From an uncultured Pirellulaceae bacterium (GTDB lineage: Bacteria > Planctomycetota > Planctomycetia > Pirellulales > Pirellulaceae): a stretch of 64,000 nt of DNA. Shown here piece by piece: positions 8,628 to 63,382 of this stretch (the first letter of the stretch is position 1; each line of letters starts with the position of its first letter). The notes under the pieces were generated by a model. The model saw only the letters and a list, made by a program, of their open reading frames with translations, ran no database searches and was not told where the DNA came from. The DNA lies in the NCBI GenBank assembly GCA_938040995.1, contig CALHZT010000202.1, positions 7,133-71,132 of the forward strand, given 5' to 3'. Position numbers and translations under genes: made by a program.

Positions 8628-8912
8628 ATCGGCCAATTTTCAGGCGACTACGGGTTGTGGATTTGTGTCTTGGTGGACGTTTCGGTCGAATATGGTTGGC
8701 GATCCGCTTGAAGCGTTACTTAGTTATAGTATCGCCTGTCTTTGGAGCGGCCACGTAAATTAGAGCAATTTTTGCTGTTATTTTAGGGTATTCTGGTTGG
8801 GGGTTATGAATCGGCACCGAGGTCGGTTTGACACTTGCGAATCCGCAGTGGTCGATGTACGATGTGAGCGGATTGAACGAATTTGATCGAAGGCTGAGCG
8901 AAGGGAATTGGT

Positions 8913-29047: not shown

Positions 29048-29253
29048 TTTGGTCAATTTCACGAGGTCCAGATCCTTTATCGTTTGAATTTATATCCGTA
29101 AGCAGCAAAGCGACCAAAATCGCCAGCAAGTGAAACTTGAGGGCTGCTACGTAAAAGTCCCCATTATAAATTGGCGGAAGACAACTTCAACGACGATTCT
29201 GTCTTGCGAGTGCAGATGAGGGCATTTCGTTGCGCTACTTTCTGTAGCCGGCT

Positions 29254-36028: not shown

Positions 36029-36643
36029 CTAAGCGGCTGTCAGACGTTTCCGTCGTGTCAGTAGCAATAGCAGTATCGGCGCGACGAGAACGAGGCCGGA
36101 GGGTTCTGGTACGAGGGTTCCTTCGTAGTTACCAAAGAATATAAAGCTGTTGTCCATGGCGGCTACGAAGTAGCGATCAAGATTGCCGCCGGTACCAGGT
36201 GGCTCGGTGGAGAGGCCAAACGTCATGTCGTCCTTGATGAAGTCGATCGCACCGCCAAATGCTCCGGGGCTGCCATTTGTGTTGCTGAAGTTAAACGACT
36301 GACCGCCATTCAAAATGACAAAGAGAACTTCGTTCGTTGGAGTCACAACGTCCATTTCTGAAAACGAAGTTAACGACGAAAAGTTAAAACTTATGTCGAT
36401 ATTGCTGAAATCGTCCATGGGATACGTGCCGTCCGCCAACGCTCCGCCGTCAAAGCTCACAGCGCCAAATCCGACGAGAGGCGCCATTACCATGCCGTCA
36501 TCGACATCGTCAAAGTTGAATTCGTAGGTGACGGCGTTTGCAGGCACATTCGATATGCAGGATAGTATCGCTGCGAGGAGAATGCTGCTTGCCATTGTTG
36601 CGCGGGATGGCAGAAAAGAAGTTCGCAATTGTCGAAAAATCAT
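36029..36643 (-). CDS. PEP-CTERM-anchored secreted protein
   Basis: The C-terminus is LVPEPSGLVLVAPILLLLLTRRKR. The start was moved to ATG 36643 (alternative 36595) because the longer ORF reads into repeat R5. Confidence 0.75.
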   Translation of the reverse strand: MIFRQLRTSFLPSRATMASSILLAAILSCISNVPANAVTYEFNFDDVDDGMVMAPLVGFGAVSFDGGALADGTYPMDDFSNIDISFNFSSLTSFSEMDVVTPTNEVLFVILNGGQSFNFSNTNGSPGAFGGAIDFIKDDMTFGLSTEPPGTGGNLDRYFVAAMDNSFIFFGNYEGTLVPEPSGLVLVAPILLLLLTRRKRLTAA

Positions 36644-36693
36644 TAGGTCCACCTTTTTCAAGTGAAGAGAGAAAATTGACAGTCTCGAAACAA

Positions 36694-36831
36694 GTAACCG
36701 TTCACGCGGGCAAGGGGCTGGGCCAATTTTTCGGCGGCAAACGGACTTATTTCGCTTTGCGGACAAATGCCGAAAATTTGTGCCTGACCCTCGCGAGCCT
36801 GAGGAAATGCCAATATCCGTGAACGGTTAAC
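36694..36831 (+). mobile_element. MITE-like repeat family R5, copy 2
   Basis: The element runs gtaaccgttcacgcgggcaagg...ccgtgaacggttaac, with clear terminal inverted repeats. It is a direct repeat of 33602..33740. Confidence 0.8.
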
Positions 36832-40792: not shown

Positions 40793-41153
40793 ATCTCGAA
40801 TCCGGGGAAACGTTGTTGGGATGGGTAGGACCGCGGCAACGCGTAACTTGGTTACAAACCTTGCCACCCTTGAATTCGGTCCTCGCGGTACGACAGGTTA
40901 AAAACGAACGGTTCGCCCCGCATATCCGTCACAAAGCGACTTTCCAGGCCCGCATTTTCTTCATAACCCGAACTCTTGTGGCAAAGTTTGCGGGCTGTAA
41001 CGGAAATGACGACTGAAAGGCCGCGGGGAATTCTTCCGCATGTAAGCCATAAAGTGTGATTAGAGTGGAATCTGACTCTGGAAGCGGGCGTAACGGCAGC
41101 ATTGGCGTGCCCTTCGCAAAGATCTTTGGCGTTACAAAACGCTCACTGAATGA

Positions 41154-43713: not shown

Positions 43714-43890
43714 ATAAGCTAAAGATCGTTCGAGAAACTACTGCCTGATCTTGCTCCGTCTTTCCCGCGCAGGCGGGAATCCATTGAATCGGATTGGTTT
43801 TTTGATGCAAGGAAAGACATTGAGCGTTAATACGCTTCGAGTGGGTCCCCGCGTTCGCGGGGAAGACGGCCATAGGCCGTCAATTGAGTA
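43714..43890 (-). mobile_element. MITE-like repeat family R1, copy 2 (reverse, truncated at one end)
   Basis: This is the reverse complement of the R1 core (ccgtcttccccgcgaacgcgggg...cccgcctgcgcgggaaagacgg...cgaacgatctttagcttat). It lacks the gaatctccgttcatg end. Confidence 0.75.
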
Positions 43891-43935
43891 GCCAGCATGG
43901 CTTTCGGTCAGTCTGTTGTGGCAAAGACGAAATAG

Positions 43936-48550: not shown

Positions 48551-50419
48551 CTATGGTTTTGATTCGGTCGATGGCTTTTTATTCGTAGCCTGGGTACCGG
48601 GGGCAACGAAACGGCGAAATAAGTGAAAGCACGTCTTGGCTGCTTTCGTTTTTAGCGGACTGAAGACTTTACGATAGCGACCGAAGTGAGTCAGCGCCCC
48701 ACCAAATTTCGCCTTGAATTCGCGCGGCCCATATTCTTTATCGGGCCAACCGGCACCACCGAAGTCATACCATCGCATACCGTTTTCACTGCACCATCGG
48801 ATCTCGTCCCATGTCAGGCAATCAAACGGAACAATTCCTTTCTGCCGTAACGACCCGCCGTACCACGCAAGAAACCTGTTCTTGAACACCAGGGCGATAC
48901 CAGCCGCCACATCTTTTCCTTCGTGGCTGGCGATTCGGACTTGCACAATTTCATCACCGAAATGGTCCAGCGCCGCGTGAAAAAGCTTGATGTCGGCCAA
49001 CGGCACCCGCGAGCGGCCGTAGCTTGCCTCGAGGAACGGGTACATTCGCTCGATGCCATTGTGGGTGGTATCGAGAGCTACCGCGACGCCGCGTTTGAAC
49101 GATTGGCGAATTTTCTTGCGTGCCGATTTCCCCATGCGACTCATCAAGGTGTCCACGTCAGCCGTCGTATCAATCACGTAATTGAGATAGTCTTTGAACT
49201 CGTAGCCATTTGCTTCGAGTACCCGGCGCTCACCAGAGTCCGATAGCATCGGACGGATCTCGGCAAACAGCGTTCGACGAGCCAGATTTTGATCGTGCTG
49301 CTGCACGATGGATTCAAGCCCTCTCACCCCCAGATCGGTGTCGTCGAATATCGGTTCGGCATGCCAGACGCTCCGTGACGTCAAACTACTGGCAAGTCCA
49401 GATATCGTCTCGATGCGTGTTGTGACCATCATGGCAACAATTCGGTCGTCTTCCGAAACGGCAACAAGGCCCGAGGGCTCATGTTTGGCCACGTCGGCCA
49501 TCGATTGAATGAACTCCTGCGTGTGACAAACACTGCCCTTCGGATGGTCCATGACGTAGCGATTCCACTCGTCTGCCGGAACTTGCTCATGAGTCAGAAC
49601 TCTGGTTACCGTTTCTCCTGAAGTTCCTGCGACTTTTTTGCCACGTAAGGCGCCGACCGTCAGGCTGCGCGAGTTTCGGTCGGCAACCCGTCGTTTGAAT
49701 TCGCGGCGCTCTATCGAGTTGGGATACGTGTAGTAGCTGCCAAGTCCGCCGTTGTCGATCGAAACCGGTTGCGTGCTTCCCTGAAGTACGTCGATTAGCA
49801 TGTCGGCTGACATTGTGTACAGTTCTTCGGCGAGTTCATCGACGGACTTTGAATAGTCAAGCGGAACTGCGCGCTGCGCGAGAATGTTTCCGAAGTCGAT
49901 TCGAGTCGTCATTTCGTGAATGGTCATACCTGTTTCCGACTCACCGTGATACATCGCCCAGAAAATGGGAGTAGGGCCACGATACGCGGGTAGCAGGGAG
50001 GAATGCATGTTGATGAACTGCACGCCGGGTGTAGAGAGCAACGGTTGCTTGAGAATATTCTTGCAGTTGCAGACCACAAGAGTATCCAGTTCCGAAATCA
50101 TCGACCGGTGAATCGGATCGTTGATGCTGGTGATCACCGAATGCGGCAGATTGGTGGCTCGCGCATGCGCATAAGCCGTTTTGGATGATTCGGCGCCGCC
50201 CAACATCTCGCCGACTCGGTCCAGTAGCAGCCCTGCGACTTTGGCATTCATTTCGCGGATGCCGAACTTGGCAATGGTCTGCAGTGGGTTGCTTCGGCTT
50301 TCCGCAATCGTGTCATAGAAATAGGCGTGGACCAGTTCGATCCCGTCTTCATTGCAAAGACGTTTAAAGACCGGGTAGCTCGTAGTGGCGGTTATGTTGG
50401 TAAGTAAAGCAACTTTCAT
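48551..50419 (-). CDS. fusion protein: N-terminal formyltransferase (Fmt/ArnA-N type) plus C-terminal FemAB/GNAT-fold acyltransferase
   Basis: The N-terminal part has VVCNCKNILKQPLL...FINMHSSLLPAYRGPTPIFWAMYHGESETGMTIHEMTTRIDFGNIL (formyl_trans_N, His/Asp). The C-terminal part has GKSARKKIRQSFKRG, ALVFKNRFLAWYGGS and WCSENGMRWYDFGGAG...REFKAKFGG, a FemAB/Acetyltransf_6 pattern. Its ATG overlaps the NRPS-PKS stop codon as ATGA (50416-50419). Confidence 0.8.
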   Translation of the reverse strand: MKVALLTNITATTSYPVFKRLCNEDGIELVHAYFYDTIAESRSNPLQTIAKFGIREMNAKVAGLLLDRVGEMLGGAESSKTAYAHARATNLPHSVITSINDPIHRSMISELDTLVVCNCKNILKQPLLSTPGVQFINMHSSLLPAYRGPTPIFWAMYHGESETGMTIHEMTTRIDFGNILAQRAVPLDYSKSVDELAEELYTMSADMLIDVLQGSTQPVSIDNGGLGSYYTYPNSIERREFKRRVADRNSRSLTVGALRGKKVAGTSGETVTRVLTHEQVPADEWNRYVMDHPKGSVCHTQEFIQSMADVAKHEPSGLVAVSEDDRIVAMMVTTRIETISGLASSLTSRSVWHAEPIFDDTDLGVRGLESIVQQHDQNLARRTLFAEIRPMLSDSGERRVLEANGYEFKDYLNYVIDTTADVDTLMSRMGKSARKKIRQSFKRGVAVALDTTHNGIERMYPFLEASYGRSRVPLADIKLFHAALDHFGDEIVQVRIASHEGKDVAAGIALVFKNRFLAWYGGSLRQKGIVPFDCLTWDEIRWCSENGMRWYDFGGAGWPDKEYGPREFKAKFGGALTHFGRYRKVFSPLKTKAAKTCFHLFRRFVAPGTQATNKKPSTESKP

Positions 50420-53400
50420 TGTAACTTTGCAAGCGCCTTGTCGAGACAGGTGGTGAACTTGATGGTAAGCGCGTCCACAAAGGGAGGTACCATCATCCCG
50501 GCTGGATAAACGGGCAGGCGATGCAGCTCGGTTTCACAGGTCGTCGGGAATTCCTGATCCTGATAACGCAGGTAGTCGCGTTGGGGACGGAAAAGAATGA
50601 TCTTACCGTCGTAGGTGGTGGCTTGATAGTGCTCCGCAATCTCATCGTGCCGTCGCCAGATTTCTGCGGCGGTCTGCTCCGCGTCACCAGAAGGACTAGC
50701 TACGCTCCAACGACTGATCCAGGTCTTGCGGCGGCGTTTGAGGACCTCCCATTTTTCCCTCAGGAAAGAAAGTTTGTCGACGTATTTCAATTTAAGAAAA
50801 TTGCGAAAGTGGTAGTCGACTCGCTGCAGGTTGTAGAGGAGCTTGACCCAAAATGATTTGCTGGCAGCCTGGGAGGTGGACCAATTGTACGTTTCGATAC
50901 AAATCAGGACCGTTTCTTCACCCGCCGCTTTCAGTTGTTGTGCGACTTCAAGCGCGATCGTCCCGCCCATGCAATATCCCGTCAACAGGTAGGGGCCTTG
51001 GGGCTGCACGGCGAGGATATCGTTGACGTAACGTTTCGCGAGCCCTTCGATACTTTCTACCGGTTCGCCAAAGAGCGCCGGGGATTGCAGACCATAGACC
51101 GAATAAGCATCTTCGATGCGCGCGGCGAGTTCCCGAAAGATCAAAGCGTAGCCGTCAGCAGCGTGCATACAGAATACGCGAGGCTTGTTGGTACTGACGG
51201 CAATCTCAACGAGCGTCGAGCGATGAGCTGGAGTCGCTGGAGTCGCTGCCGCCACCGGCTCTGTGGCCTGGTCCAGGCCAAGGTGTTCAGCAAGTCGTGC
51301 AGGTGTGGAGAATTCGACCATCGCTGCGAAGGGTAGCCTCTGGCCAAACTGCTTCTCCAGCTCGGCGAGAAAACGGACGGCGCTGAGTGAGTCACCACCC
51401 AGCTCAAAATAATTGTCATCCGCTGCGACTTTTGGGATTGAGAGCAGGCGCTCCCACATCCGCGCGATCTGCCGCTCACCCGATAATGCATCGTTGGAAC
51501 CAGCGGCGGAATCTGACACCGCCTGGCTATCCGACTCTCTGGCTTGCCGCGCGGCTTCGAGAAATGGAGATTTGGCATGAATGTCGAGTTCGACGCGGCG
51601 AGCCAGATCGCGCGTCGAAATCAGGACGGTGGAGGCGTCACACGCCAGCACACGCTGGAACATCGCGGCTCCCTGATCCGGCGTGAATGAATCGAAGGGA
51701 TCGAACAGTCGTTGGCCGGTTCCAAACGATTCGGCAAAATCGCGTGCAACTTCGGCTGCCATCCCAATCGACTGCCATTCGTCCGAGGCGATTGCGACGG
51801 CGTGGATGCCTCGCTCGCGTTGTCGAGCCGCGAAGGCTTCGAGGAAACTGTTGGCAGCCACGTAACTTAACTGGCCGTAGCGATTGTGATACAGCACGTT
51901 CGAAATGGAAGAGTACAGCACCCAGAATTCGACGGGATGATCGGCAAGTGCGGCTTCGAGCGCGTAGCTGCCTTTGATTTTCGATTGCAGCATCCGTTCG
52001 GTTGCGTCCTTGTCACGCAACTGGATCGCTCCTGCCGTATCGGCAACGCCTGCGGCGTGAACAACGCCGTGTATCGGACCGAATTGTTGCGTGCCGGTTG
52101 CGATCGCATCACGCAGTTGCTGTTCGTCGGAAACGTCGGCGGGCAGTAGAACGACGCTTCCCGGAAGTGATTCCAGCTGCTGCAATCGTTGAATTTTCTG
52201 CGACGTGCCATCGTCTGCGTCGTGCTGGTCGAGCCAGTCTTTCCATTCGTCGCGGGGCGGTAGTGGACTGCGGCCAAGCAAGATCACATTGGCGTTTACA
52301 GTTTCGAGCAGTTTGCGGGCAAGCGAAAAACCGATGCCTCCCAGACCGCCAGTGACGAGGTAAGTGCCGCCTTGCTTTAAACGCGCTGTGTTTTCGTACG
52401 ATGCGTCGAGCGGCAGTCGCCGGACAGAAGGGGCACAGCGTTGGCCATCGCGATAGGCGATCCAGACATCATCAATAGCAAGCTGCAATTCATCGCTGGC
52501 TTGTTCCCAGGCGGTCGTTGCGATGTCGACCAGTCGGCATTCAATTTGAGGGTACTCGAGCGGGATGACTTTGGCGGCGCCCAGCAAGGATGCACGGTTC
52601 GCGTGAATTGCGGCGCTGTTCGTAGTACCGTCTTTAGGCGGAATGGTGGTCGAATTGGTAGCGGCAGTGGCAGCTGGATTCCGGCTAAAGCCGGTGCTGC
52701 AAACTGAGTCAGCATGCCCGTGGGTGAATATCGAGAGCGCGATTGGGGTGTCGATGTGGAAACGCCCCAGCGATTGAGCCAGGAATTGTAGCGAGTAAAT
52801 TCCCAGCGACTGTTGCCGTTGTAATTCGCCTTGCCAACCCGCATTCGACGTGTCGATTGACTGATCGTCGTTCCATTGCCAGAGATGAACGATTCTGGTC
52901 GGGAACCTGCCTGCGTCGGCCATGGTTTGTAATAGTTGATCGAAATGTTTGGGGGCATTCGGATCAATCGTGAACTCAGCTTCACTCACCTGATGGAATG
53001 ATTCGGCAGCACGGACCAGCGTAACTTGGCTGCCGCTCATATCGCTCCGCAGTTTCTTGACCAGCGACTGTGAGGCGGCATCTTCACCAGCGAAGACCAG
53101 CCAGACAACGTCTGTCGCTTGAGTCGATTCGGGTGGATTTCCAGACAGAGGTTCCCAGTCAGGAACGTAGAACCAGTCGTCAAACGGTTCGCGCCGCTGT
53201 GGTAACGCGCTGGCGATTTCAGCATTCATCAGCGCTGGTGTGGCTACGTCAACTGTTGTCGTTGTTGCAGTGGCAACCGCAGGGGAGCGAGTGCCTGGTG
53301 GTGCGTCCTCAACCCAGAATCGCTTTCTCTGAAATGGATAAGTCGGTAGCGGAACGCAGCGTGGGCGGGCGTCCGGGTTCTGCGGCCAATCGACGGCAGC

Positions 53401-56400
53401 GCCATTGGCCCAGGCTTCGGCAAGAGATTTCCACCAAACGTCTACGTCATTCGACTCCTGTTTGGGGTGCCGTGTGGACCGAATCGTATGCCCAGCCAGA
53501 TCGGGTTGCAGGCGGACGAGACTGGAGAGGGTTTGACCAGGGCCGACTTCAATGAACACGTTGGTTTTTCGATCGACGAGCGCTGCTGCTGCTGACGAAA
53601 AGTTCACGGTTTGGCGGATGTTTCGCGCCCAATATTCGGGCTGTGTCATCTCACCATTGGAAACCCATGTTCCTGTCACGGTCGAAACAATGGGTAGTTG
53701 CGGCTCGCGTCGATCTCGCCTGGCAACCTCTGCCTGGAAGGTCGCCATGGCTGGCTCCATCATCGCAGAGTGGAAAGCGTGTGACGTCCTGAGCGCGCGA
53801 AACGCGACTTCTTCCGAATCGAGTTGTTCCGCGAACGCGTCCACCGCAGCGGTCGGACCGGAGACCACGCAGTGCTGCGGGCTGTTGACGACCGCCATCG
53901 ACAGCCCAGACGGCAGCCGCTCTCTCACGCTGGATTCTGGCAAAGTCACGGCGAGCATTTTGCCTCGGGGAAGATCCTGTAGCAGCCGTCCTCGGAGCAC
54001 GGCCAGCTCGATCGCTGTCTTCGGCGTAAAGACTCCCGCAATACAGGCCGCTGCCAGTTCACCGATGCTGTGTCCGACCACATAATCTGGCTGCACTCCC
54101 TGTCGCATCCACAGTCGAGCCAACGCCAATTCAATCACGACGATCGCCGGTTGCGTCAACCACGTCTCCGACAATTGCGTTGCTGCGGTCGAATCCTGTT
54201 CGAATATCGCCTGTCGTAAATCTACCGAGAGCGTTGGCTGAGCGTACTGGCAGAACTCGTCGACGTCAGCGCGAAATGACTTGTCGGCGTCGTAGAGATC
54301 CCGCGTCATACCAACGTACTGGGCGCCCTGACCGGGGAACAGAAACGCTACGCTCGTTTTGCGCGCGGCTGTAACGTTGATCGACTGGACGATGTTATCG
54401 GAGTGCGAGCCGGGGTCAGCGAGTGCGGCCTGCAACTCTTCACGCGTCCTGCCCATGACGACTCGACGAGCCTGAAAGGCGCGGCGACCGTGCTTCAACG
54501 TGCGCTCGATGGAGGCTAAAGACGTCTCCGGTTGCTGATGCAGGTACTCGCCAAGATGTCTGGTTGCGATATCAAGGGCCGACTCATTGCGAGCTGATAG
54601 CAAAAGCAGATGAGGCGCACCGGTTTCCGATGCAGCAGGCGTTGAACAATTTGAATGGGAATCGTCATCCTGGGTAGATGGTGGCTCGGGCGAAGTCGCC
54701 GAGGGCGGTTCTTCGAGGATCGCATGGGCGTTCGTACCGCCGATGCCGAACGCGCTGACTCCAGCGATTCGCCGCTGTCCAGGTTGTCGTTGCGGCCACT
54801 CGGTCAACTCCGTCGCAACGCGAAACGGGCTGTCAGCAAAATTGGCGTTGCGATTCGGAGTGCGAAAGTGCAGCGATGGCGGAATCGTTCCATCGCGGAC
54901 AGCACAGGCGGCTTTGATGAGTCCAACGATACCAGCGGCTACGTCCTGATGCCCAACGTTTGTTTTCACCGAACCGATCCAGCAGTAATTGCTGTCGTCG
55001 GTTGACGCTCGGAACGCTTTGGTCAGTGCGTCGACCTCGACGGGATCCCCGACGAATGTGCCCGTGCCGTGCGCTTCGATATAACCGACCTGATCAGCCG
55101 TAATACCACTTTGCTCGTGGGCCATCTGCACGACTTGACACTGGCCGTCGGTCGAGGGCGCCGAATAGCCCATCTTGGACCCGCCATCGTTGTTGATCGC
55201 CACCGTCTTGATTACGGCATGAATCGTGTCCCCGTCGGCTTTGGCATCGGACAATCGCTTGAGCACGACGGCTCCCACGCCTTCACCAAACACGGTTCCC
55301 TGGGCGTCATCATCGAACGTCCGCACGCGTCCATCGGGCGAGAGCACCATGCCCTCCTGTGAGAGATAGCCGTTGCGATACTCGAGATTCACACTCACGC
55401 CGCCTGCCAAAGCGAGCGAGCATTGCCCCAGCTGTAGCGACTGGCAAGCCAACTGGACGGCGACCAGTGAAGTCGAACAGCCCGTCTGTACGGTCATGCT
55501 CGGACCGGTCAGGTTCAGTCGAAAGGACACTCGAGTTGAGAGAAAGTCTTTTTCGTTGCTGATCAGTGTTTGAAAAGCCGTCGCCGGGTCGGGTGGACCC
55601 AACGCTCGGTCAATCAGTGCCCGATAGTCATTCGGGCGGGCGCCAGCGAACACGCCAATCTCTCCGTGGTCGCTGTCAGGGTCGTAACCAGCATGTTCCA
55701 GTGCCGACCACGCACACTCCAGAAAGATTCGGTGCTGCGGATCGGTAATCTTGGCCTCGTGTGGACTGATACCGAAGAATTCGGCATCGAATTTATCCAC
55801 GTCGGTGAGCGACGAGGTGACGGGCACGTAATTTGGATCGTTCACCTGTGCGGCAGGCACGCCCGCAGCGAGAAGTTCTTCGGGAGTCAGCCGACGAATC
55901 GACTCGACACCGTTCTTGAGGTTTTCCCAGAACTCATCGACGGACTCCGCGCCCGGCACGCGCGCCGCCATGCCCACAATCGCGATCGGTTCCAACTGGA
56001 CTCGCGAGTTTGTTTTTGCTGCCTTCGATCCGGAACCCTTCGTTTTCTGGTCCTCGCTATCAAGATAAGTCGCCAACTCGGCAATCGTCGGGTGCTGGAA
56101 TAGATCCACAATCGCGAACTTGCTCGATGGCAGCACCTTGTTCAATCGCAATTCCATTTCGGCGAGCATTAGCGATTGCCCACCGAGTTCGAAAAACGAG
56201 TGATCGACACTGACTCGATCCAGCTTCAGCAACTGACACCAGACCGTGGCAATCGTCTGTTCGGTATCGGTCGTTGGTGCCTCATACGGTCGATCTGATG
56301 CGGGCGGCGCGGGTTCGGGTAGCGCCTTGGCATCCAGCTTGCCATTCGGCGTGAGTGGGATCTCGTCGATAGGTACAAAAAACTGCGGGACCATATATTC

Positions 56401-57933: not shown

Positions 57934-58367
57934 TTTGTTATTTAGCCGTCCACCAACAACTTCAAGTAGAAAAACACCAGTCTAAAACGGGCTGGGATAG
58001 CGCGTCGGAACCTTGCGAATAAAAGAAGGATGGAGATATCGAGATTGCTTTTGATACAACCTCCATAATAATTCAACCTCGCGGCAAGTGCGTCGAGATT
58101 CGGCGATCGGCTGCCGAAAAGCGAGCCATCCGCGAACATTCAGGGGGTTTGCGAAGAGTACGCTTTATCGGGCTTCAGATAGCCATGAATCAGTCGTTTC
58201 CCAACCGGACCATTTCGGCTGGATGTTTCCACCGGGGAGCGACCAAGCCGCTGACACCCGGTATCCATCAAGCTCACGCTGACAGATGGTCGTGGAAATC
58301 ACGCACAATCGATATTTCTGGCGGAAGTCGAATTTCCATCCGCTTCGTGGAATGAAAAGCTGTCATC

Positions 58368-58592
58368 CTAAGCTTAGGATCGTTCGATCAATGAGTGTCG
58401 AATCTCCGTTCATGCGACTCGATTGACGGCCTATGGCCGTCTTCCCCGCGAACGCGGGGACCCACTCGAAGCGTACTAACGCTCAATATCTTTCCCTGCA
58501 TCAAAAAGCCAATCCGATTTAATGGATTCCCGCCTGTGCGGGAAAGACGGAGGAAGATCAGGCAGTGATTTCTCGAACGTTCCCAAGTTTTA
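58368..58592 (+). mobile_element. MITE-like repeat family R1, copy 3 (uninterrupted)
   Basis: The element runs ctaagcttaggatcgttcgatcaatgagtgtcgaatctccgttcatg...ccgtcttccccgcgaacgcgggg...cccgcctgtgcgggaaagacgg...tctcgaacg. It sits in the 750-bp gap between the GT4 gene and the NRPS-PKS gene. Confidence 0.8.
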
Positions 58593-58683
58593 AGGCGAGC
58601 GGCGGATAAAAATTTACCTGCTTGCGTTCTTGAGCCGCTACGGCCACCGATGTCTTATCGGTAAATTCTTACTCGCCTTTCGC

Positions 58684-59904
58684 CTAAACGAGCTGAGATG
58701 ACGTCGACTGGACTTTGCGATAAGTCGCGATTAGAGATTCTTTCTGATGCTTCCATGCCAATTCGGACTCGATTCGACGGCGTCCCTTTTCGCCCATCGA
58801 CTGACGTAGATCTGGCTCATCCATCAGTTTTTGCAGGCACTCAGCAAAGTGCAGTACGTCACCGGGCTTTGCGTAGAGCGACGCATCGCCTGCGCTGTAG
58901 CGGTGTTCTGGCATGTCATAACCCACGACTGGTTTGGACATGGCCATGTATTCCATCGTTTTGATCATGGTGCACGAGGCGTTATACGAATTGACCGGAT
59001 CGGGAGTCACCATGATGTCGCACGAAGCGATGTGTGAATACAACGCATTGCCTTGTTGATATCCCACAAACGCCATCTTGTCGTCGAGCTGCAACTCCAC
59101 CGACAGATCTTTGAGGCTTTGCAGTGCCGGGCCGTCTCCAATGATTAGGCCAAAGAAGTCGTCGCGGTTCAGGTCTCTGGTCAGTCGTCCCATCGCCTGA
59201 AGAAAACTGTCGACGCCATCCTGAAAACCAATACACCCCATGTACCCGAGAATGATCTTGTCCATCGCCCGATACTCGGGCAGGGGAGTCGCCCCCACCA
59301 TCTGCTGGAACCTTGGGCCGTTGCGCACCACATTGGTGCGAGCCGGATCGACATGACACCGGGAAATGTCACTCGCGCGTTGTGACTCGTTGGTTTGAAT
59401 CATCTGGTCGGCCAGCCGACAGGACCGACGTTCAAACCACTTCAATATTCGCACCAGCAGTGAATCTTCACTTGCCTGGGACTGGGCCTGATACAACTCT
59501 GGTGAAAGGTCGTGGTGATCCATCACGTAGCGGACACCAAACAGCTTGAACCAGGCTCCGATCGTGACATACATATCAGGCGGTGTATGCACGTGCAACG
59601 CATCGAACCCGTACCGGAGGAACAGGTAATTGGCAATGAAAAATGCCATCGTCAGACTGTATCCGTATTCGACCACATAACCGATCAGTCCCGACCACTC
59701 TGGCGGCGCAGGGTAACGATACACGGTGACGCCGTCCATCACTTCACGGCGCTTCGACGTGTACGCATCCCTGGGACACACGACGCTGACCGTATGACCT
59801 GCTTCGGCTAATGCCGTCGCTTCGTTGGCAACTCGCGTGTCGTCTGGATAACCGCCATTTTCGAGGAGCATCAGAATGCGGCACGGTTTGGTAAGTTCTG
59901 TCAT
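58684..59904 (-). CDS. GT4-family (GT-B fold) glycosyltransferase
   Basis: ATG 59904 gives MTELTKPCRILMLLENGGYPDDTRVANEATALAEAGHTVSVV. The C-terminal part is Glycos_transf_1-like (FVGYQ...IMVTPD...KTMEYMAMSKPVVGYD). The longer listed ORF would overlap the upstream gene. Confidence 0.8.
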   Translation of the reverse strand: MTELTKPCRILMLLENGGYPDDTRVANEATALAEAGHTVSVVCPRDAYTSKRREVMDGVTVYRYPAPPEWSGLIGYVVEYGYSLTMAFFIANYLFLRYGFDALHVHTPPDMYVTIGAWFKLFGVRYVMDHHDLSPELYQAQSQASEDSLLVRILKWFERRSCRLADQMIQTNESQRASDISRCHVDPARTNVVRNGPRFQQMVGATPLPEYRAMDKIILGYMGCIGFQDGVDSFLQAMGRLTRDLNRDDFFGLIIGDGPALQSLKDLSVELQLDDKMAFVGYQQGNALYSHIASCDIMVTPDPVNSYNASCTMIKTMEYMAMSKPVVGYDMPEHRYSAGDASLYAKPGDVLHFAECLQKLMDEPDLRQSMGEKGRRRIESELAWKHQKESLIATYRKVQSTSSQLV

Positions 59905-60109
59905 CTCGCTTTTGTCTTGCCGCCATAAAGAATAGTAAATCGACTGGATGCCGGGAAATTTCATCCCCGTTTTGATGAGCAGCGTCATACCATCAAAAGA
60001 ATTCGCTGCGTGCGCACCGACGGGGTGCAACCACACACGCCAACGACTCGTTATTGCCCTAATACAGTTTACGAACAAGGCAACGACTTCCCTACCAACA
60101 AACCCACAA

Positions 60110-61132
60110 TTATTCTTCCTTCGCGTAATCGGAATTCGACTGATCATTGCTCTGTTCGTGCCCCGTGAGTGAGCGACACCAAGTCGCCATTTCGTGTGGT
60201 AACACGTGCCATGGAGAGGTTTCGTCGCGAAGATATCGCAAAAAGTCACCGTACACCTTCAGTCGGGAAGGGGTGTCAAGATAATCGGGGTGAGTCACCA
60301 TTAATGCCATGCCGTGCAATCTACGGATCGTCGCCAACTTTTGCCGCCAGTAATCGTCCGTGGTCTGTCGCAATGTGACCAGCAGCGTGTGATCTTGCGG
60401 CAACGTGTATGGAAGTTCGACAAATTTTCCGAACACGAATGGCCACAAACTGCCGACGCCGCCAGGCATGGCCTGGAATGGATCGCTGTCAAAGCACGAT
60501 GCGTCATAGTCAATATTCAACTGCTGCAACCAGTGCATATTGCGGTGTACCATCGGTGCGCGAAATCCGGTAGCACCCAGCTCATCGATCGCTCGATTGA
60601 TGCCGGGTACTCGCGAATTGAATATCTTTTCGCTCAGGAACAGCTTGCCGTCATGGTTGTAACCATGAACGCCAACTTCGTGCCCGCGTCGTTTGAGATC
60701 GCGGACCAGCCCCGGGTCTGTCTTGTACTTGTATGGGATGAAGTACCAGCAGGACCGAAAACCAAGCTCTTCTTCGAGCTGGGCAATCGGCTCGATAATC
60801 TTCAGGCCTTCTTTGGTCTCAACATCATGTGAAAGGACGAGTGAAAATTCGGCGGAGTTTGGCCAAATCGAGTTCAGTGTGACATCTTCCTTGTCCATGA
60901 ACTCGATCAGCCGTTGGGGCATGAACTGGTCAAGGCTCGTGTCCGCACTCTGGTTGCGCATCCGCTGCAGCAGCTGCCGGACAAAGATTGGTAGTAGGCC
61001 GCGGATCTGGTAAAAGGCGCGGAACGTGGGCGAAAGCCTCGCCGATTCGATGTCTTCGTGAAGCGATTGCTCGAGATGGTTAACCAGCTCGCCTTTCAGA
61101 GGGTAGCTGGCCTGTAGGGATTGGCTATTCAT
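60110..61132 (-). CDS. polysaccharide deacetylase-like (NodB/CE4-type) protein
   Basis: LVLSHDVETKEGL supplies the Asp motif. RRGHEVGVHGYNHDG supplies the His-x-x-x-x-His metal motif. The start was set at ATG 61132, 22 nt after the AsnB-like stop codon. Confidence 0.65.
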   Translation of the reverse strand: MNSQSLQASYPLKGELVNHLEQSLHEDIESARLSPTFRAFYQIRGLLPIFVRQLLQRMRNQSADTSLDQFMPQRLIEFMDKEDVTLNSIWPNSAEFSLVLSHDVETKEGLKIIEPIAQLEEELGFRSCWYFIPYKYKTDPGLVRDLKRRGHEVGVHGYNHDGKLFLSEKIFNSRVPGINRAIDELGATGFRAPMVHRNMHWLQQLNIDYDASCFDSDPFQAMPGGVGSLWPFVFGKFVELPYTLPQDHTLLVTLRQTTDDYWRQKLATIRRLHGMALMVTHPDYLDTPSRLKVYGDFLRYLRDETSPWHVLPHEMATWCRSLTGHEQSNDQSNSDYAKEE

Positions 61133-61154
61133 GGATGTCAGGTCTGTGGTGATG

Positions 61155-63155
61155 TCAGGTCTGTGGGGTATTGGCCGCGTCTGTTTGTAGGTTGTTTTTC
61201 CTTGATGAAGTAAAGTCCTGTCCATTATCCAGGCTCGGTCCCTCAGCCATGGCATTGGTGGAAGAAGAGGCGTCGACAAATCGACGCATCCACATTTCGA
61301 AACTCATCAGGCCCCAAAGCTCGGTAGCAAAATCTGCATAGCCGTTTTCGTGCAGCTTCATCATTTTTTCTACACGTTCAAAGCGAAAGAGCCCGCGTGA
61401 TTCGATTGACGACTTCGTCAATAAATCGCGCATCATCGGTTGCGCCTCTTTTCGCAGCCATTTTTCGATCGGAATGGGGAAGCCCTGTTTGGGTCGGTTG
61501 ATAATGCTCTCAGGAATCAGTCGCCCAGCGGCCTGCTTGAGCAGGTACTTGCGACTGCGCCCGCGCAGTTTCATGTTTGCAGGCAGGGAAGCCGCGAATT
61601 CCACGAGCTTGTGATCGAGAAGCGGCACGCGTGCTTCGAGGGAATTGGCCATGGTCAGTTTGTCGCCACGCAAGAGCAGGTAATCGACCAGCCAGAGTTT
61701 CGAGTCGACGTAGAGCATGCGGTTCAGTGGATCGCGGGCATCGGTGCGATCGAGGTGCGACGCAAACGCCGCGGCAGCTCCCGCCCGTGCATGATGCATG
61801 TTGCTCGCGAGCAGTTCCGCCTTGGCATCGTCGCTGAACATCGGGAACCAGTTGGCGAAGCGAGTCGCCTCGTCACCGATCGTCAACGCGTTAAGGGCAA
61901 TTTTGGCTCGCCGCATGCCCGGCAACATACGAGCCAGTCCGCAAGTTGGTTTTCGCAGCACGCCCTGGAGCGGCCAGAATTTCGGCGAATGCTGCTCGCC
62001 TTCGTAGCGGGCGTATCCAGCGAACAATTCGTCACCGCCCTCACCGGTCAGGACCATCTTCACGTGTTGCCTGGCCAGTTTTGCGACCATATGCGTGGCG
62101 ACGGTGGCTTGATCGGCAATCGGCTGATCAAGATGGAAGAGGACTTTTTCGGCGTGCTCCAAAAAGTCACTAGGACCGATCAGGAACGAATGGAATTCGC
62201 AGCCGAACCGGTCGGCGATCACGCGTGCGTAAGGCAGCTCGTCCATGGACTGGCCGTCGGACGACTGATGATCAAAGCCCACGGTGAATGTCTTTACGGG
62301 TTGGTTCATGGCTTCGGCCATCAGCGCAACGATCGTGCTGCTGTCGATGCCTCCGCTGAGGAAGGCGCCGAAGGGCACGTCGGCTCGCAGCCGCAACTGG
62401 ACCGACTCCCGCAAGATCGACAGGAGTTCGTCGGTGGCGTCCTCTTCCGACATCGAGGCACGAGTCGGCTCGTAGGATATATCCCAGTAACGCTCGATCT
62501 TCAGGCTGTTCTTTCCGCCGCCCGCGCGGACACGAATGGAATGGCCGGGAGGTAACGACTGAATATCCGCAAACATGGTGCGCGGAGCCGGAACGTATTT
62601 GAGCGAGAGATAGTCGCTGAGCGCGAGTTGGTCCAGGCGTGCATCGACGCGGGGATGGCGGAGCAGTGATTTGACTTCCGAGCCGAAGATAAGCGTGTCG
62701 CCGCGCACCGCGTAATAGAGCGGCTTGATGCCCATGCGGTCGCGGACAATGAATAGCTCGCGATCATGATGGTCCCAGATGGCAAAGGCGAACATGCCAC
62801 GCAGCTCATCAACGCAAGCCGGACCCATCTCTTCGTAGAGGTGAATGATGACTTCGGTGTCGCTCTGTGTGCGGAATTGATGACCGCGTTCGATCAGTTC
62901 TTTTCGCAGTTCCCGGTAGTTGTAGATTTCACCGTTAAAGACGATGCCGTAGCGTCCGCTCTCGTCGTAGATCGGCTGTTGGCCGTCAGCAAGGTCGATG
63001 ATACTCAAGCGTCGCATGCCCATCGCCAGCGGGCCGTCCACAAGTTCACCCCATTCATCGGGACCACGGTGGATGATCGAATCGAGCATCGGCCGCAGCA
63101 CCGAAGGATCGGTGACGGATTCGGTCAGTTCGAGATATCCAGCGATTCCACACAT
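61155..63155 (-). CDS. asnB: asparagine synthase (glutamine-hydrolysing) family amidotransferase
   Basis: MCGIAGY provides the N-terminal Cys2 nucleophile. The GATase-II motifs follow. FLSGGIDSS is the PP-loop of the synthetase domain. Confidence 0.9.
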   Translation of the reverse strand: MCGIAGYLELTESVTDPSVLRPMLDSIIHRGPDEWGELVDGPLAMGMRRLSIIDLADGQQPIYDESGRYGIVFNGEIYNYRELRKELIERGHQFRTQSDTEVIIHLYEEMGPACVDELRGMFAFAIWDHHDRELFIVRDRMGIKPLYYAVRGDTLIFGSEVKSLLRHPRVDARLDQLALSDYLSLKYVPAPRTMFADIQSLPPGHSIRVRAGGGKNSLKIERYWDISYEPTRASMSEEDATDELLSILRESVQLRLRADVPFGAFLSGGIDSSTIVALMAEAMNQPVKTFTVGFDHQSSDGQSMDELPYARVIADRFGCEFHSFLIGPSDFLEHAEKVLFHLDQPIADQATVATHMVAKLARQHVKMVLTGEGGDELFAGYARYEGEQHSPKFWPLQGVLRKPTCGLARMLPGMRRAKIALNALTIGDEATRFANWFPMFSDDAKAELLASNMHHARAGAAAAFASHLDRTDARDPLNRMLYVDSKLWLVDYLLLRGDKLTMANSLEARVPLLDHKLVEFAASLPANMKLRGRSRKYLLKQAAGRLIPESIINRPKQGFPIPIEKWLRKEAQPMMRDLLTKSSIESRGLFRFERVEKMMKLHENGYADFATELWGLMSFEMWMRRFVDASSSTNAMAEGPSLDNGQDFTSSRKNNLQTDAANTPQT

Positions 63156-63194: not shown

Positions 63195-63382
63195 TGGCGA
63201 ACCGGCTGCGTAAGCTGCCGGGTGTGCGGGATGGAGAGGTATGTAGTGGTTGCTTATTGTGCAGTGTCATCGTCGATTTGCAGATACAGAGTGCATGGGC
63301 AGTTTCCACCCGGCAGCTTACGCAGCCGGTTCGCCTGAAACTGATTGAGTAGTACTGGCCTAAAGCCGGTACTACCAACTCG
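63195..63382. repeat. R3 inverted pair followed by a partial R2 hairpin
   Basis: ggcgaaccggctgcgtaagctgccgggtg (63195-) faces cacccggcagcttacgcagccggttcgcc (-63335). It is followed by gtagtactggcctaaagccggtactaccaac. The block begins 40 nt upstream of the AsnB-like start codon. Confidence 0.75.

What the first reader, a model, noticed from the sequence alone, without database searches (positions are those of the whole stretch)
48551..63155. Compact NRPS-PKS cluster built into a gene set resembling PEP-CTERM/exosortase-associated polysaccharide modification
Five co-directional minus-strand genes form the cluster:
- AsnB-like amidotransferase
- CE4-like deacetylase
- GT4 glycosyltransferase
- a one-polypeptide A-PCP-KS-AT-KR-ACP-TE synthase
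- a formyltransferase-FemAB fusion, translationally coupled to the synthase (ATGA at 50416-50419)

From memory, curated exosortase/PEP-CTERM locus families include a FemAB-related protein, an AsnB-type amidotransferase, a polysaccharide deacetylase subfamily, sugar transferases, and a stand-alone acyl-CoA ligase plus ACP. Here the ligase+ACP slot appears to be filled by a complete NRPS-PKS module. The window also encodes three PEP-CTERM proteins.

That combination suggests a small amino-acid/polyketide unit made for attachment to a glycan or cell-surface polymer, rather than a free secondary metabolite. I do not know of a characterised example. No exosortase, PPTase or exporter is visible in the window.
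Basis: partly seen in the sequence, partly recalled or inferred. Interest (0 to 1): 0.8.

Follow-up and report, generated by a model that had tools for sequence, protein, structure and literature searches.

The report
Threonine-polyketide synthase inside sugar-decoration genes
A planctomycete gene cluster joins a one-module threonine-plus-malonate synthase to four enzymes that elsewhere make an amino-acid-decorated "linking sugar". Relatives of its unusual release domain sit inside polysaccharide and exosortase loci in four other phyla, so its product is probably attached to a cell-surface glycan rather than released as a free metabolite.

Summary
The five minus-strand genes are real: an AsnB-type amidotransferase, a CE4-like deacetylase, a GT4, an A-PCP-KS-AT-KR-ACP-TE synthase and a formyltransferase-FemAB fusion.

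- **Synthase chemistry.** The A domain carries the exact threonine code, the AT is malonyl-type, and KS and KR are intact. The TE has a Cys nucleophile and no canonical His. The predicted product is a 4-amino-3,5-dihydroxyhexanoyl thioester.
- **Family scores.** The four accessory proteins score best to XrtA/PEP-CTERM-locus families, but all fall below the curated cut-offs.
- **Conservation.** The five-gene block as a whole is not conserved. The conserved core is GT4 plus synthase, which in some Pirellulaceae leads into Wzx/Wzy polysaccharide loci.
- **The Cys-TE family.** It has 167 representative clusters and is mostly Gly-loading A-PCP-TE. It recurs next to GT4, CE4-like, FemAB-like and AsnB genes. 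In Acidobacteriota and Opitutaceae it lies inside exosortase loci.
- **Characterised analogue.** The accessory set matches, activity for activity, the Wbp/Vim pathway that makes the N-seryl or N-glycyl linking sugar of type IX secretion.

This is a new variant of a known kind, and attachment to a glycan is inferred, not shown.

The parts
61155..63155 (-). AsnB-type glutamine amidotransferase, 666 aa, starting MCG.
   Evidence: PF00733 at 347 bits and GATase_7 at 172 bits. TIGR01536 scores 530.6, above its cut-off of 267. TIGR03108 (XrtA/PEP-CTERM amidotransferase) scores 613.7, below its cut-off of 816.9.
60110..61132 (-). CE4-like de-N-acetylase, about 340 aa. The ORF extends to 61279; the probable start is M50 at 61132.
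   Evidence: PF01522 at 23.5 bits. It is 28-34% identical to homologues that sit next to GT4 in L028-31. The motifs HDVE, HxxxHDG, FRAP and HPDY are conserved. A profile matches deacetylase 3RXZ at E = 6e-8. Start codon.
58684..59904 (-). GT4 glycosyltransferase, about 406 aa. The ORF extends to 60249; the probable start is M116 at 59904.
   Evidence: Pfam GT4/GT1 domains. It is 59-62% identical to the GT4 directly upstream of orthologous synthases in L010, L014-16, L018, L019 and L021, and 48% identical to the GT4 upstream of FemAB in L005-7.
57934..58683 (.). Non-coding spacer of 750 bp between GT4 and the synthase. It contains a dispersed palindrome-rich repeat at 58394-58583.
   Evidence: No ORF longer than 68 aa and no Rfam hit. 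Repeat copies lie at 2497-2696 and 43724-43892. In the loci with called genes (L010, L014, L015, L016) the GT4-synthase spacing is -4 to 53 bp.
50416..57933 (-). Hybrid NRPS-PKS of 2505 aa, with these domains in window coordinates. A(Thr) 56338-57849. PCP 56029-56256 (Ser587). KS 54865-55992 (Cys819, His955, His995). AT 53527-54345 (Ser1289, HAFH). KR 51772-53100. ACP 51280-51471 (Ser2182). TE 50419-51222 (Cys2321, Glu2347).
   Evidence: Pfam. Stachelhaus code DFWNIGMVHK. Catalytic motifs. Eight same-architecture orthologues at 53-56% identity.
50419..51222 (-). TE-like release domain with a Cys nucleophile (GYCMGG), a Glu acid (IETYNW) and VYPAGMM at the canonical His position.
   Evidence: Alignments. 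The AF2 model has pLDDT 75 and its fold matches NRPS, PKS and FAS TEs at TM 0.5-0.6. The family has 167 representative clusters at E <= 1e-30, and 138 of the best 149 carry Cys.
48551..50419 (-). Formyltransferase (49649-50419) fused in frame to a FemAB-like aminoacyl-transferase domain (48554-49648). Its start overlaps the synthase stop (ATGA).
   Evidence: Pfam. The FT N-H-D motif is intact. In L002-4 the two halves are separate adjacent genes, 77% and 82% identical to the window's, with about 0.5 kb between the FT stop and the aligned FemAB part. The closest PDB relatives are ArnA and Fmt for FT, and an aminoacyl-tRNA-dependent peptide synthase and FemX for FemAB.

Best explanation
This is one glycan-decoration system: a Vim/WbpS-like set for modifying an amino sugar, extended by a small NRPS-PKS.

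**Supported directly by sequence motifs**
- The synthase loads L-threonine on its PCP.
- It condenses the threonine with one malonyl unit and reduces the beta-keto group. That leaves 4-amino-3,5-dihydroxyhexanoyl-S-ACP.
- The acyl group is then passed to the Cys of the TE-like domain.

**Inferred from gene neighbourhoods and from the Wbp/Vim analogy**
- The GT4 installs an N-acetylated amino sugar on a lipid-linked or nascent glycan.
- The CE4-like enzyme removes the N-acetyl group.
- The Cys-TE delivers the threonine-derived acyl unit to the freed sugar amine as an amide.
- The FemAB domain adds an amino acid from aminoacyl-tRNA to a remaining free amine.
- The fused formyltransferase caps an amine with formate.
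- The AsnB-type enzyme amidates a carboxylate, for example turning a uronic acid into a uronamide.

The product would be a surface-glycan decoration. It could also be the amine-bearing acceptor used when PEP-CTERM proteins are sorted.
For: **Synthase chemistry**
- The A code DFWNIGMVHK is the exact Thr code. It is kept as DFWN[IV]GMVHK in all 8 orthologues, of which two were cut at the first two positions and were read in full from their loci.
- The AT has GHSIG and HAFH, KS has its Cys-His-His residues, KR has its NADPH and Ser-Tyr-Asn motifs, and both carrier serines are present.

**GT4 plus synthase is the conserved unit**
- An orthologous GT4 (59-62% identity) lies directly upstream in 6 of the 8 distinct synthase clusters whose upstream DNA is available, counting the window.
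- Entotheonella keeps a 68-aa GT4 remnant in that position.

**Glycan context of the pair**
- In L014/L017 the pair is followed by Bac_transf, an acetyltransferase, DegT, Wzz, Wzy and Wzx.
- L016 and L019 are similar.

**The Cys-TE family in other phyla**
- Chloroflexota L031: Wzy-Wzx-GT2-GT4-GT4-CE4-like-[C-A(Gly)-PCP-TE].
- Acidobacteriota L028-30: GT4-FemAB-CE4-like-exosortase-...-ACP-TE.
- Opitutaceae L041: a PIG-L deacetylase, a VPDSG-CTERM protein, A(Gly)-PCP-TE, a PPTase, an exosortase, then PrsT and PrsK above their cut-offs.
- L038: the TE is followed by an AsnB gene. L054: an exosortase lies 4.6 kb away.

**Substrates loaded next to this TE family**
They are mostly Gly, and also Ser and Thr. 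Ser and Gly are the amino acids carried by the type IX secretion linking sugars.

**Characterised analogue**
In the Wbp/Vim pathway VimE is a CE4 enzyme, VimA is FemAB-like (it matches TIGR03019), and WbpS is AsnB-like. Homologues of WbpS in PEP-CTERM loci top-match TIGR03108. The glycosyltransferase VimF is a further gene needed for that polysaccharide. The pathway makes 2-N-seryl-3-N-acetylglucuronamide (PMC7468200).

**Links between FT, FemAB and the synthase**
- In the window their genes overlap and FT and FemAB are fused.
- In L020 an FT gene lies convergent to the synthase.
- In Entotheonella an FT plus FemAB-like pair lies 4 kb from the synthase.
- In L008 a FemAB gene follows directly after an A(Thr)...Cys-TE assembly line.
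- One Pirellulaceae MAG (CAYNNP01) carries both GT4-synthase (L021) and AsnB-GT4...GT4-FemAB (L006).

**Precedent for a TE passing an acyl chain to a sugar**
The Pks13 TE, which is among the fold matches. Its function is from my own knowledge.
Against: - No product, acceptor or transfer step has been observed. Every step after formation of the acyl-ACP is inferred.
- All four accessory proteins fall below the curated XrtA-family cut-offs.
- There is no exosortase, Wzx/Wzy, initiating transferase, PPTase or exporter in the 64-kb window.
- A repeat-bearing spacer of 750 bp separates GT4 from the synthase, so co-transcription is unproven.
- CE4 and AsnB have no orthologue next to any Pirellulaceae synthase outside the window.
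- The closest FemAB relative (81% identity) has FT and FemAB without a synthase.
- Some orthologous synthases lie in non-glycan contexts: L010 (FabA and an aldehyde dehydrogenase), L015 (Nqr) and L011.
- N-formylation would block an amine, which fits poorly with a role as a sortase acceptor.
- The TE lacks a recognisable catalytic His, so its chemistry is uncertain.
Confidence: 0.55

Rival explanations
1. This is an ordinary small secondary-metabolite cluster. The synthase makes 4-amino-3,5-dihydroxyhexanoate or its lactone/lactam. The product is then glycosylated on a hydroxyl by the GT4, extended by one amino acid by FemAB, N-formylated and amidated, and leaves the cell as a free soluble compound.
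For: - All the tailoring activities (GT, formyltransferase, aminoacyl-tRNA transferase, amidotransferase) are also known in natural-product pathways. The PDB relatives include the LgrA F domain and an aminoacyl-tRNA-dependent peptide synthase.
- Several orthologous synthases lie outside any visible glycan locus: L010, L011, L015 and Entotheonella.
- L008 places a FemAB gene after a large NRPS-PKS.
Against: - A CE4 de-N-acetylase has no obvious role on such a molecule.
- The GT4 partner and the Cys-TE family recur inside Wzx/Wzy and exosortase loci in five phyla.
- No exporter or regulator typical of metabolite clusters is present.
- In L005-7 the GT4 orthologue pairs with FemAB without any synthase.
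Confidence: 0.25
2. The Cys-TE forms a strained ring, as ObiF and SulM do. Here that would be a beta-lactone from the 3-hydroxyl, giving a reactive acylating warhead.
For: - Among structurally characterised NRPS TEs, Cys nucleophiles are known only in ObiF (beta-lactone), SulM (beta-lactam) and the uncharacterised AB3403 (PMC11298585).
- The predicted intermediate carries a beta-hydroxyl.
Against: - Most family members load glycine, which has no beta-hydroxyl or beta-amine.
- The Gln-Cys-Asn motif of SulM is absent; this family has GYCMGG.
- The acid residue sits at the ordinary post-beta6 position, as in AB3403.
Confidence: 0.07
3. Two unrelated units happen to lie side by side: a polysaccharide-modification trio (AsnB-CE4-GT4) and a separate synthase-FT-FemAB operon.
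For: - The 750-bp spacer carries a mobile-looking repeat.
- CE4 and AsnB are not conserved next to other Pirellulaceae synthases.
Against: - The boundary proposed by this reading cuts through the single best-conserved adjacency, GT4-synthase.
- CE4-like, FemAB-like and AsnB genes reappear beside the same TE family in distant phyla.
Confidence: 0.05

Closest known systems
Wbp/Vim linking-sugar pathway of Porphyromonas gingivalis and Tannerella forsythia (type IX secretion; Veith et al. 2020, PMC7468200)
   Same: - It uses the same four accessory activities. VimE is a CE4 deacetylase that removes the 2-N-acetyl group. VimA is FemAB-like (it matches TIGR03019) and puts Ser or Gly on the freed amine. 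WbpS is an AsnB-like amidotransferase that makes the uronamide. The glycosyltransferase VimF is a further gene needed for that polysaccharide.
- Its authors noted the same gene set next to exosortases and proposed an amino-acid-modified sugar as the exosortase acceptor.
   Different: - That pathway has no carrier protein, no NRPS or PKS, and no formyltransferase.
- The window has no Wbp genes (WbpA/B/E/D types were not seen).
- Planctomycetes are not known to me to use type IX secretion.
- Orthology to VimA, VimE, VimF or WbpS was not tested directly.
XrtA/PEP-CTERM (EpsH) exopolysaccharide loci and their accessory families: TIGR03019, TIGR03006, TIGR03108, TIGR04063/03087/03088, and the TIGR03098 ligase with its ACP
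   Same: - These are the best-matching curated families for the FemAB, CE4, AsnB and GT4 proteins. The A domain also hits TIGR03098.
- GT group 1, polysaccharide deacetylase, chain-length determinant and sugar transferase genes cluster with EpsH (PMC1569441).
- PEP-CTERM proteins are present in the window.
   Different: - Every score is below the curated cut-off.
- There is no exosortase in the window.
- The stand-alone ligase plus ACP is replaced by a full A-PCP-KS-AT-KR-ACP-TE module.
Carrier-protein-dependent aminoacylation of surface glycopolymers: DltABCD (D-alanylation of teichoic acids) and AlmEFG (glycine on Vibrio cholerae lipid A). Functions are from my own knowledge.
   Same: - An NRPS-type adenylating enzyme loads a small amino acid on a carrier protein for transfer to a cell-envelope glycoconjugate.
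- DltA models are among the hits of the A domains.
   Different: - Transfer in those systems uses MBOAT-type or LpxL-type membrane enzymes, not a fused Cys-TE.
- They have no PKS extension.
Nod-factor logic: NodC glycosyltransferase, NodB CE4 deacetylase, NodA N-acyltransferase, and NodF/NodE ACP and KS. From my own knowledge.
   Same: A GT builds a GlcNAc-type sugar, a CE4 enzyme frees one amine, and an acyl chain made on a dedicated carrier protein with a KS is put on that amine.
   Different: - The acyl unit there is a fatty acid.
- The transferase is NodA, not a TE.
- The product is a secreted signal.
Cys-nucleophile NRPS thioesterases: AB3403 (4ZXH/4ZXI), ObiF1 and SulM
   Same: - All have a Cys nucleophile in a type-I TE fold.
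- AB3403 is a C-A(Gly)-PCP-TE with its acid residue after beta6. It is among the best sequence and fold matches.
   Different: - ObiF and SulM make beta-lactone and beta-lactam rings and have a relocated Asp.
- AB3403's product is unknown.
- The present family mostly lacks the canonical His.
Pks13 thioesterase domain of mycobacteria
   Same: It is a TE domain that acts as an acyltransferase onto a sugar, trehalose (from my own knowledge). It appears among the fold matches and the NCBIfam hits.
   Different: It uses a Ser-His-Asp triad, carries a very long lipid substrate and forms an O-ester rather than the proposed amide.

Membership tests
XrtA/PEP-CTERM-associated FemAB family (TIGR03019) | Whole-protein score at or above the curated cut-off of 260.35 bits | tested here: not met
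   63.3 bits over residues 284-573. It is the best hit for the FemAB half.
XrtA system polysaccharide deacetylase (TIGR03006) | Score at or above 276.2 bits | tested here: not met
   27.2 bits. This is the only NCBIfam hit for the protein.
XrtA/PEP-CTERM system amidotransferase (TIGR03108) | Score at or above 816.9 bits | tested here: not met
   613.7 bits over the full length. This is the top hit. The generic TIGR01536 model passes, at 530.6 against a cut-off of 267.1.
PEP-CTERM/XrtA system glycosyltransferases (TIGR04063, TIGR03088, TIGR03087) | Score at or above 442, 409 and 317 bits respectively | tested here: not met
   69.4, 29.9 and 22.4 bits.
PEP-CTERM/exosortase system locus | An exosortase (EpsH/Xrt) gene in the locus | tested here: not met
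   No PF09721 hit among the window's ORFs, and no tblastn hit with two exosortase queries. Only 64 kb of the genome is visible.
PEP-CTERM/exosortase system locus | PEP-CTERM substrate proteins encoded in the genome | tested here: met
   Three VPEP-hydrophobic-RRRR tails, at <2-445, 28457-29062 (PF07589 at 21.7 against 20.7) and 36029-36766. They lie 12-48 kb from the cluster.
Wbp/Vim linking-sugar pathway | A CE4 deacetylase, a FemAB-like transferase, a GT and an AsnB-like amidotransferase encoded together | tested here: met
   All four domain types lie within 48551-63155. The roles are taken from PMC7468200.
Wbp/Vim linking-sugar pathway | Wbp enzymes (WbpA/B/E/D) that make a 2,3-diacetamido uronic acid | tested here: not met
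   No UDP-sugar dehydrogenase, DegT aminotransferase or WbpD-type acetyltransferase among the window's ORFs. Relative L014 does have DegT and a hexapeptide acetyltransferase.
Wbp/Vim linking-sugar pathway | Orthology to VimA, VimE, VimF or WbpS | not tested
The link rests on shared TIGRFAM matches reported in the paper.
Hybrid NRPS-PKS module | A, PCP, KS, AT, KR, ACP and TE domains with their catalytic and attachment residues | tested here: met
   All Pfam domains are above their cut-offs. Ser587, Cys819, His955, His995, Ser1289, the KR GGLGGIG and Ser-Tyr-Asn motifs, and Ser2182 are present.
Threonine-activating A domain | Stachelhaus 10-residue code DFWNIGMVHK (from my own knowledge) | tested here: met
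   Exact match. The GrsA control gives DAWTIAAICK, as published. TIGR01733 scores 437 against a cut-off of 317.
Type-I thioesterase (PF00975) | Alpha/beta-hydrolase TE fold | tested here: met
   PF00975 scores 79.6 against 26.4, covering the N-terminal half only. The AF2 model matches EntF, AB3403, NocB, FAS and Pks13 TEs at TM 0.5-0.6.
Type-I thioesterase (PF00975) | Ser-His-Asp catalytic triad | tested here: not met
   The nucleophile is Cys2321 and the acid is Glu2347. The canonical His position reads VYPAGMM.
CE4 carbohydrate esterase | Metal-binding and catalytic motifs (Asp; His-x3-His; Arg-x-Pro; a late His) | tested here: met
   HDVE, H(G/D)xxHDG, FRAP and HPDY are invariant across 5 homologues. 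Pfam is borderline at 23.5 against 23.1. PDB 3RXZ matches at E = 6e-8.
N10-formyl-THF formyltransferase (PF00551) | Asn-His-Asp catalytic residues within the HxSLLPxxRG motif | tested here: met
   INMHSSLLPAYRG and RIDFGNIL are present. PF00551 scores 77.5 against 26.1.
FemABX / aminoacyl-tRNA-dependent transferases | Pfam FemAB or Acetyltransf_6 domain above its cut-off | tested here: met
   PF13480 at 47.5 against 22 and PF02388 at 42.3 against 24. The closest PDB relatives are an aminoacyl-tRNA-dependent peptide synthase (9WQW) and FemX. Use of tRNA cannot be tested here.

The most novel reading that the evidence does not exclude
Carrier-protein plus Cys-TE modules are a tRNA-independent counterpart of VimA. 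This window's Thr-malonate NRPS-PKS would be the most elaborate version. On this reading the modules build the long-sought amine-bearing glycan acceptor, an N-aminoacyl or N-(amino-polyketide-acyl) sugar. Exosortases would then ligate PEP-CTERM or VPDSG-CTERM proteins onto that acceptor. The formyltransferase-FemAB fusion would tune or cap it.
Probability: 0.2. Interest if true: 0.9.

Novelty: new variant of a known kind. Interest (0 to 1): 0.72.

Why it matters
What exosortases attach their PEP-CTERM cargo to has been unknown since the system was described in 2006. The only solved analogue is the type IX secretion linking sugar, which uses a CE4 enzyme, a FemAB-like enzyme and an AsnB-like enzyme.

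This work finds a distinctive Cys-thioesterase family. It is usually fused to a glycine-loading NRPS module, and here to a threonine-loading NRPS-PKS. It is repeatedly embedded in those gene sets and in true exosortase loci across five phyla. That gives a concrete, testable candidate for how an amine-bearing acceptor or decoration is made.

It would also mean that genome-mining tools which count such small "NRPS/PKS clusters" as secondary-metabolite loci are partly counting cell-envelope glycan machinery.

Tried and rejected
- **DNA beyond the right end of the window.** An exact look-up of the AsnB protein, meant to fetch that DNA, found no record. What lies upstream of AsnB beyond 64000 is therefore unseen.
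- **Metagenome scan with the TE profile.** It gave no further Pirellulaceae-type loci, only relatives of the Acidobacteria and Chloroflexota kinds.
- **Beta-lactone release, by analogy with ObiF.** Considered and set aside, because most family members load glycine.
- **Transglutaminase synteny.** The transglutaminase-like gene convergent with FT-FemAB looked syntenic with L002, but the two proteins share no tblastn similarity.
- **Entotheonella FT plus FemAB-like pair.** It is not orthologous to the window's. FemAB is 19% identical (E = 0.006) and FT is 38% identical over 76 aa. I count it as analogous co-location only.
- **KR stereochemistry.** It could not be typed. The LDD position reads VADT and there is no clear Trp motif.
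- **The 750-bp gap.** Rfam and promoter/terminator scans gave nothing usable.
- **Literature.** Full-text searches found no paper linking exosortase loci with NRPS or PKS modules, and none on planctomycete NRPS-PKS genes in polysaccharide loci.
- **Organism name.** It could not be retrieved. A Pirellulaceae origin is inferred from relatives and from the DUF1501, PSCyt and PSD1 gene content.

Full report
**1. What is in the sequence**

The region 48551-63155 holds five co-directional minus-strand genes.

- **AsnB** (61155-63155) is a full-length class-II glutamine amidotransferase / asparagine-synthase protein.
- **The next ORF** (60110-61279) is only a borderline Pfam CE4 match, 23.5 against a cut-off of 23.1. 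It has homologues 28-34% identical in four other loci. These conserve HDVE, H-x3-HDG, FRAP and HPDY, which correspond to the CE4 metal-binding and catalytic motifs. A profile of the five sequences matches the polysaccharide deacetylase 3RXZ at E = 6e-8. Its likely start is M50 at 61132, 22 nt after the AsnB stop.
- **The GT4 ORF** (58684-60249) is over-extended. Orthologues align only from residue about 119, and the likely start is M116 at 59904.
- **The synthase** (50416-57933, 2505 aa) is A-PCP-KS-AT-KR-ACP-TE.
- **The last gene** (48551-50419) is a formyltransferase fused to a FemAB-like domain. Its ATG overlaps the synthase stop as ATGA.

The 750-bp GT4-synthase spacer has no credible ORF or Rfam match. 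It does contain one copy of a dispersed, palindrome-rich repeat of about 170-200 bp, with two more copies in the window. In the four loci with called genes (L010, L014, L015, L016) the same two genes are -4 to 53 bp apart.

Three PEP-CTERM tails are present elsewhere in the window. No exosortase or PPTase is detectable in the 64 kb. Gene content (DUF1501, PSCyt2/PSD1, ECF sigma factors) and the nearest relatives point to a Pirellulaceae planctomycete.

**2. What the synthase makes**

That fragment reproduces the published Phe code DAWTIAAICK, which validates the numbering. The window's code is DFWNIGMVHK. That is the classical threonine signature (from my own knowledge). It is kept as DFWN[IV]GMVHK in all eight orthologues. 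Two of them were cut at the first two positions and were read in full from their loci.

- The AT has GHSIG and HAFH, which is malonyl-type (from my own knowledge).
- KS has Cys819, His955 and His995.
- KR has GGLGGIG and Ser-Tyr-Asn, but it cannot be stereo-typed.
- Both carrier serines are present.

The enzyme-bound product is therefore 4-amino-3,5-dihydroxyhexanoyl-S-ACP. This follows directly from the motifs.

**3. An unusual release domain**

The TE fold is confirmed by an AF2 model (pLDDT 75) whose best PDB matches are the EntF, AB3403, NocB, FAS and Pks13 TEs at TM 0.5-0.6. The catalytic residues are not the usual ones.

- The nucleophile is Cys2321, in GYCMGG.
- The acid is Glu2347, in IETYNW.
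- The place of the canonical His is taken by VYPAGMM.

A phmmer scan of 1.84 billion representative proteins finds 167 clusters at E <= 1e-30. Of the best 149, 138 have Cys and 6 have Ser. Most are about 900-aa A-PCP-TE, about 1350-aa C-A-PCP-TE or about 380-aa ACP-TE proteins. Their A-domain codes are dominated by glycine-type signatures.

Among solved NRPS TEs, Cys nucleophiles are known only in ObiF, SulM and the uncharacterised Gly-loading AB3403 (PMC11298585, PMC10510592). What replaces the His is unexplained.

**4. Is the five-gene block conserved?**

Not as a block.

- **FemAB.** The FemAB half has only 17 detectable relatives, and the fusion to FT is unique to this organism. In the closest relative (L002-4) FT and FemAB are separate adjacent genes, 77% and 82% identical to the window's. 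About 0.5 kb lies between the FT stop and the aligned FemAB part, and the window's protein joins them in frame. That relative has no synthase nearby.
- **Synthase.** It has eight same-architecture orthologues at 53-56% identity, seven of them planctomycete-like and one from Candidatus Entotheonella.
- **GT4 plus synthase.** An orthologous GT4 (59-62% identity) sits directly upstream in the window and in five of the other seven clusters whose upstream DNA is visible. Entotheonella keeps a 68-aa GT4 remnant in that place.
- **What follows the pair.** In L014/L017 it is Bac_transf, a hexapeptide acetyltransferase, DegT, Wzz, Wzy and Wzx. L016 and L019 are similar.
- **FT and FemAB links elsewhere.** In L020 an FT gene (63% identity) lies convergent to the synthase. 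In Entotheonella a distantly related FT plus FemAB-like pair lies 4 kb away. In L005-7 a GT4 orthologue (48% identity) directly precedes FemAB (57% identity), with an AsnB-GT4 pair 8 kb upstream. The same MAG (CAYNNP01) carries GT4-synthase on another contig.

**5. The same parts in other phyla**

I scanned one genome per species with the TE profile and annotated the hits.

- **Chloroflexota L031:** Wzy-Wzx-GT2-GT4-GT4 (44% identical to the window's)-CE4-like (32%)-[C-A(Gly)-PCP-CysTE].
- **Acidobacteriota L028-30:** GT4 (37%)-FemAB-like-CE4-like (30%)-exosortase (TIGR02602 at 117 against a cut-off of 105.6)-monooxygenase-ATP-grasp-PPTase-GT2-[ACP-CysTE]. The related locus L054 has an exosortase 4.6 kb away.
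- **Opitutaceae L041:** a PIG-L de-N-acetylase, a VPDSG-CTERM protein, [A(Gly)-PCP-CysTE], a PPTase, an outer-membrane barrel and an XrtC-like exosortase. These are followed by PrsT (407 against 312) and PrsK (371 against 300).
- **Acidobacteria L038:** [C-PCP-CysTE] followed by AsnB.

So each of the window's accessory genes recurs beside this TE family somewhere. Two phyla put it inside bona fide exosortase loci.

**6. The characterised analogue**

Veith et al. 2020 (PMC7468200) showed that type IX secretion cargo is joined to a linking sugar. It is 2-N-seryl-3-N-acetylglucuronamide in P. gingivalis and 2-N-glycyl-3-N-acetylmannuronic acid in T. forsythia.

- VimE, a CE4 enzyme, is proposed to remove the 2-N-acetyl group.
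- VimA is FemAB-like (it matches TIGR03019). It sets the Ser or Gly specificity.
- WbpS is AsnB-like. It makes the uronamide.
- VimF is a glycosyltransferase needed for the same polysaccharide.

The authors also saw VimA-like, deacetylase, GT, AsnB and exosortase genes together in Nitrosomonas, Nitrosococcus and Desulfovibrio. They speculated that these genes make an amino-acid-modified sugar for the exosortase. The window's AsnB, CE4, GT4 and FemAB are the same four activities. The amino acids loaded next to the Cys-TE family (Gly, Ser, Thr) include those on the linking sugars.

**7. Most likely mechanism**

The steps up to the acyl-ACP are shown by motifs. The rest is inferred.

- GT4 places an N-acetyl amino sugar.
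- The CE4-like enzyme frees its amine.
- The Cys-TE passes the threonine-derived acyl unit to that amine. For a TE acting as a transferase onto a sugar, compare Pks13 (from my own knowledge).
- FemAB adds an amino acid from aminoacyl-tRNA.
- The fused FT formylates an amine.
- AsnB amidates a carboxylate.

I put 0.55 on the general claim of one glycan-directed system, and much less on the order of steps. The rivals are a free glycosylated metabolite (0.25), beta-lactone release (0.07) and chance juxtaposition (0.05).

**8. Membership and novelty**

The accessory proteins are relatives, not members, of the curated XrtA-locus families, because all fall below their cut-offs. The locus lacks an exosortase, so it cannot be filed as an exosortase locus.

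It works like the Wbp/Vim and XrtA accessory sets, with an NRPS-PKS in the carrier-protein slot. I found no paper describing this combination. It is a new variant of a known kind.

The wider observation is that a large Cys-TE family of mini-NRPS modules is tied to glycan and exosortase loci. That is the part most worth following up.

Noticed in passing
window 58394-58583, 2497-2696, 43724-43892: A dispersed intergenic repeat of about 170-200 bp in three copies, 88-93% identical, one of them inverted. It is full of short palindromes (GGCCTATGGCC, CCCCGCGAACGCGGGG, CCCGCCTGCGCGGG). One copy sits in the GT4-synthase spacer. It looks like a REP- or MITE-like element.
   Followed up: partly
window 63196-63335 (+): A sub-threshold Rfam match to a microRNA precursor model (MIR533, 41 bits against a gathering score of 80, E = 6.7e-6), in the intergenic region upstream of AsnB. 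It is probably just a long hairpin.
   Followed up: no
window 48551-50419; L002 8756-11137: The formyltransferase-FemAB fusion is unique among 17 relatives. A close relative has the two as separate adjacent genes with about 0.5 kb between the FT stop and the aligned FemAB part, and the window's protein joins them in frame. In two loci (L002, L009) a Cupin_8/JmjC gene is the FemAB neighbour instead of a synthase.
   Followed up: partly
L012/L013 9796-9999 (Candidatus Entotheonella): A 68-aa remnant of the partner GT4, 59% identical to the window's GT4, sits directly upstream of the Entotheonella orthologue of the synthase. This suggests the GT4-synthase pair moved as a unit and the GT4 then decayed.
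   Followed up: partly
L041 6314-19531 (Nibricoccus sp., Opitutaceae): A compact exosortase locus: a PIG-L deacetylase, a VPDSG-CTERM protein, A(Gly)-PCP-CysTE, a PPTase, an outer-membrane barrel, an XrtC-like exosortase, PrsT and PrsK. It looks like the cleanest system for testing what the Cys-TE family does.
   Followed up: partly
L026-L037 and L054 (Acidobacteriota): A recurrent gene group accompanies the ACP-CysTE. It comprises an unannotated 461-aa protein on the opposite strand, a TPP-dependent enzyme, an acyl-CoA-ligase-like gene, a flavin monooxygenase and a GT2. Its function is unknown.
   Followed up: no
L008 1-11029: A large NRPS plus PKS with an aminotransferase domain ends in A(Thr)...Cys-TE (GWCMGG, His retained). 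A FemAB homologue (40% identity) follows directly. This is a second case of FemAB coupled to a Thr-loading assembly line.
   Followed up: no
window 12859-19314, 37031-40867, 2746-5574 (all minus strand): Three very large ORFs of 2151, 1278 and 942 aa. None has a Pfam family match above the curated cut-offs. The 1278-aa ORF has only a sub-threshold TPR hit.
   Followed up: no
window 7737-8636 (-) and 8913-9923 (+): A MerR/HTH protein with B12-binding domains, which looks like a CarH-type light sensor. It lies divergent from a sigma-70-type factor.
   Followed up: no
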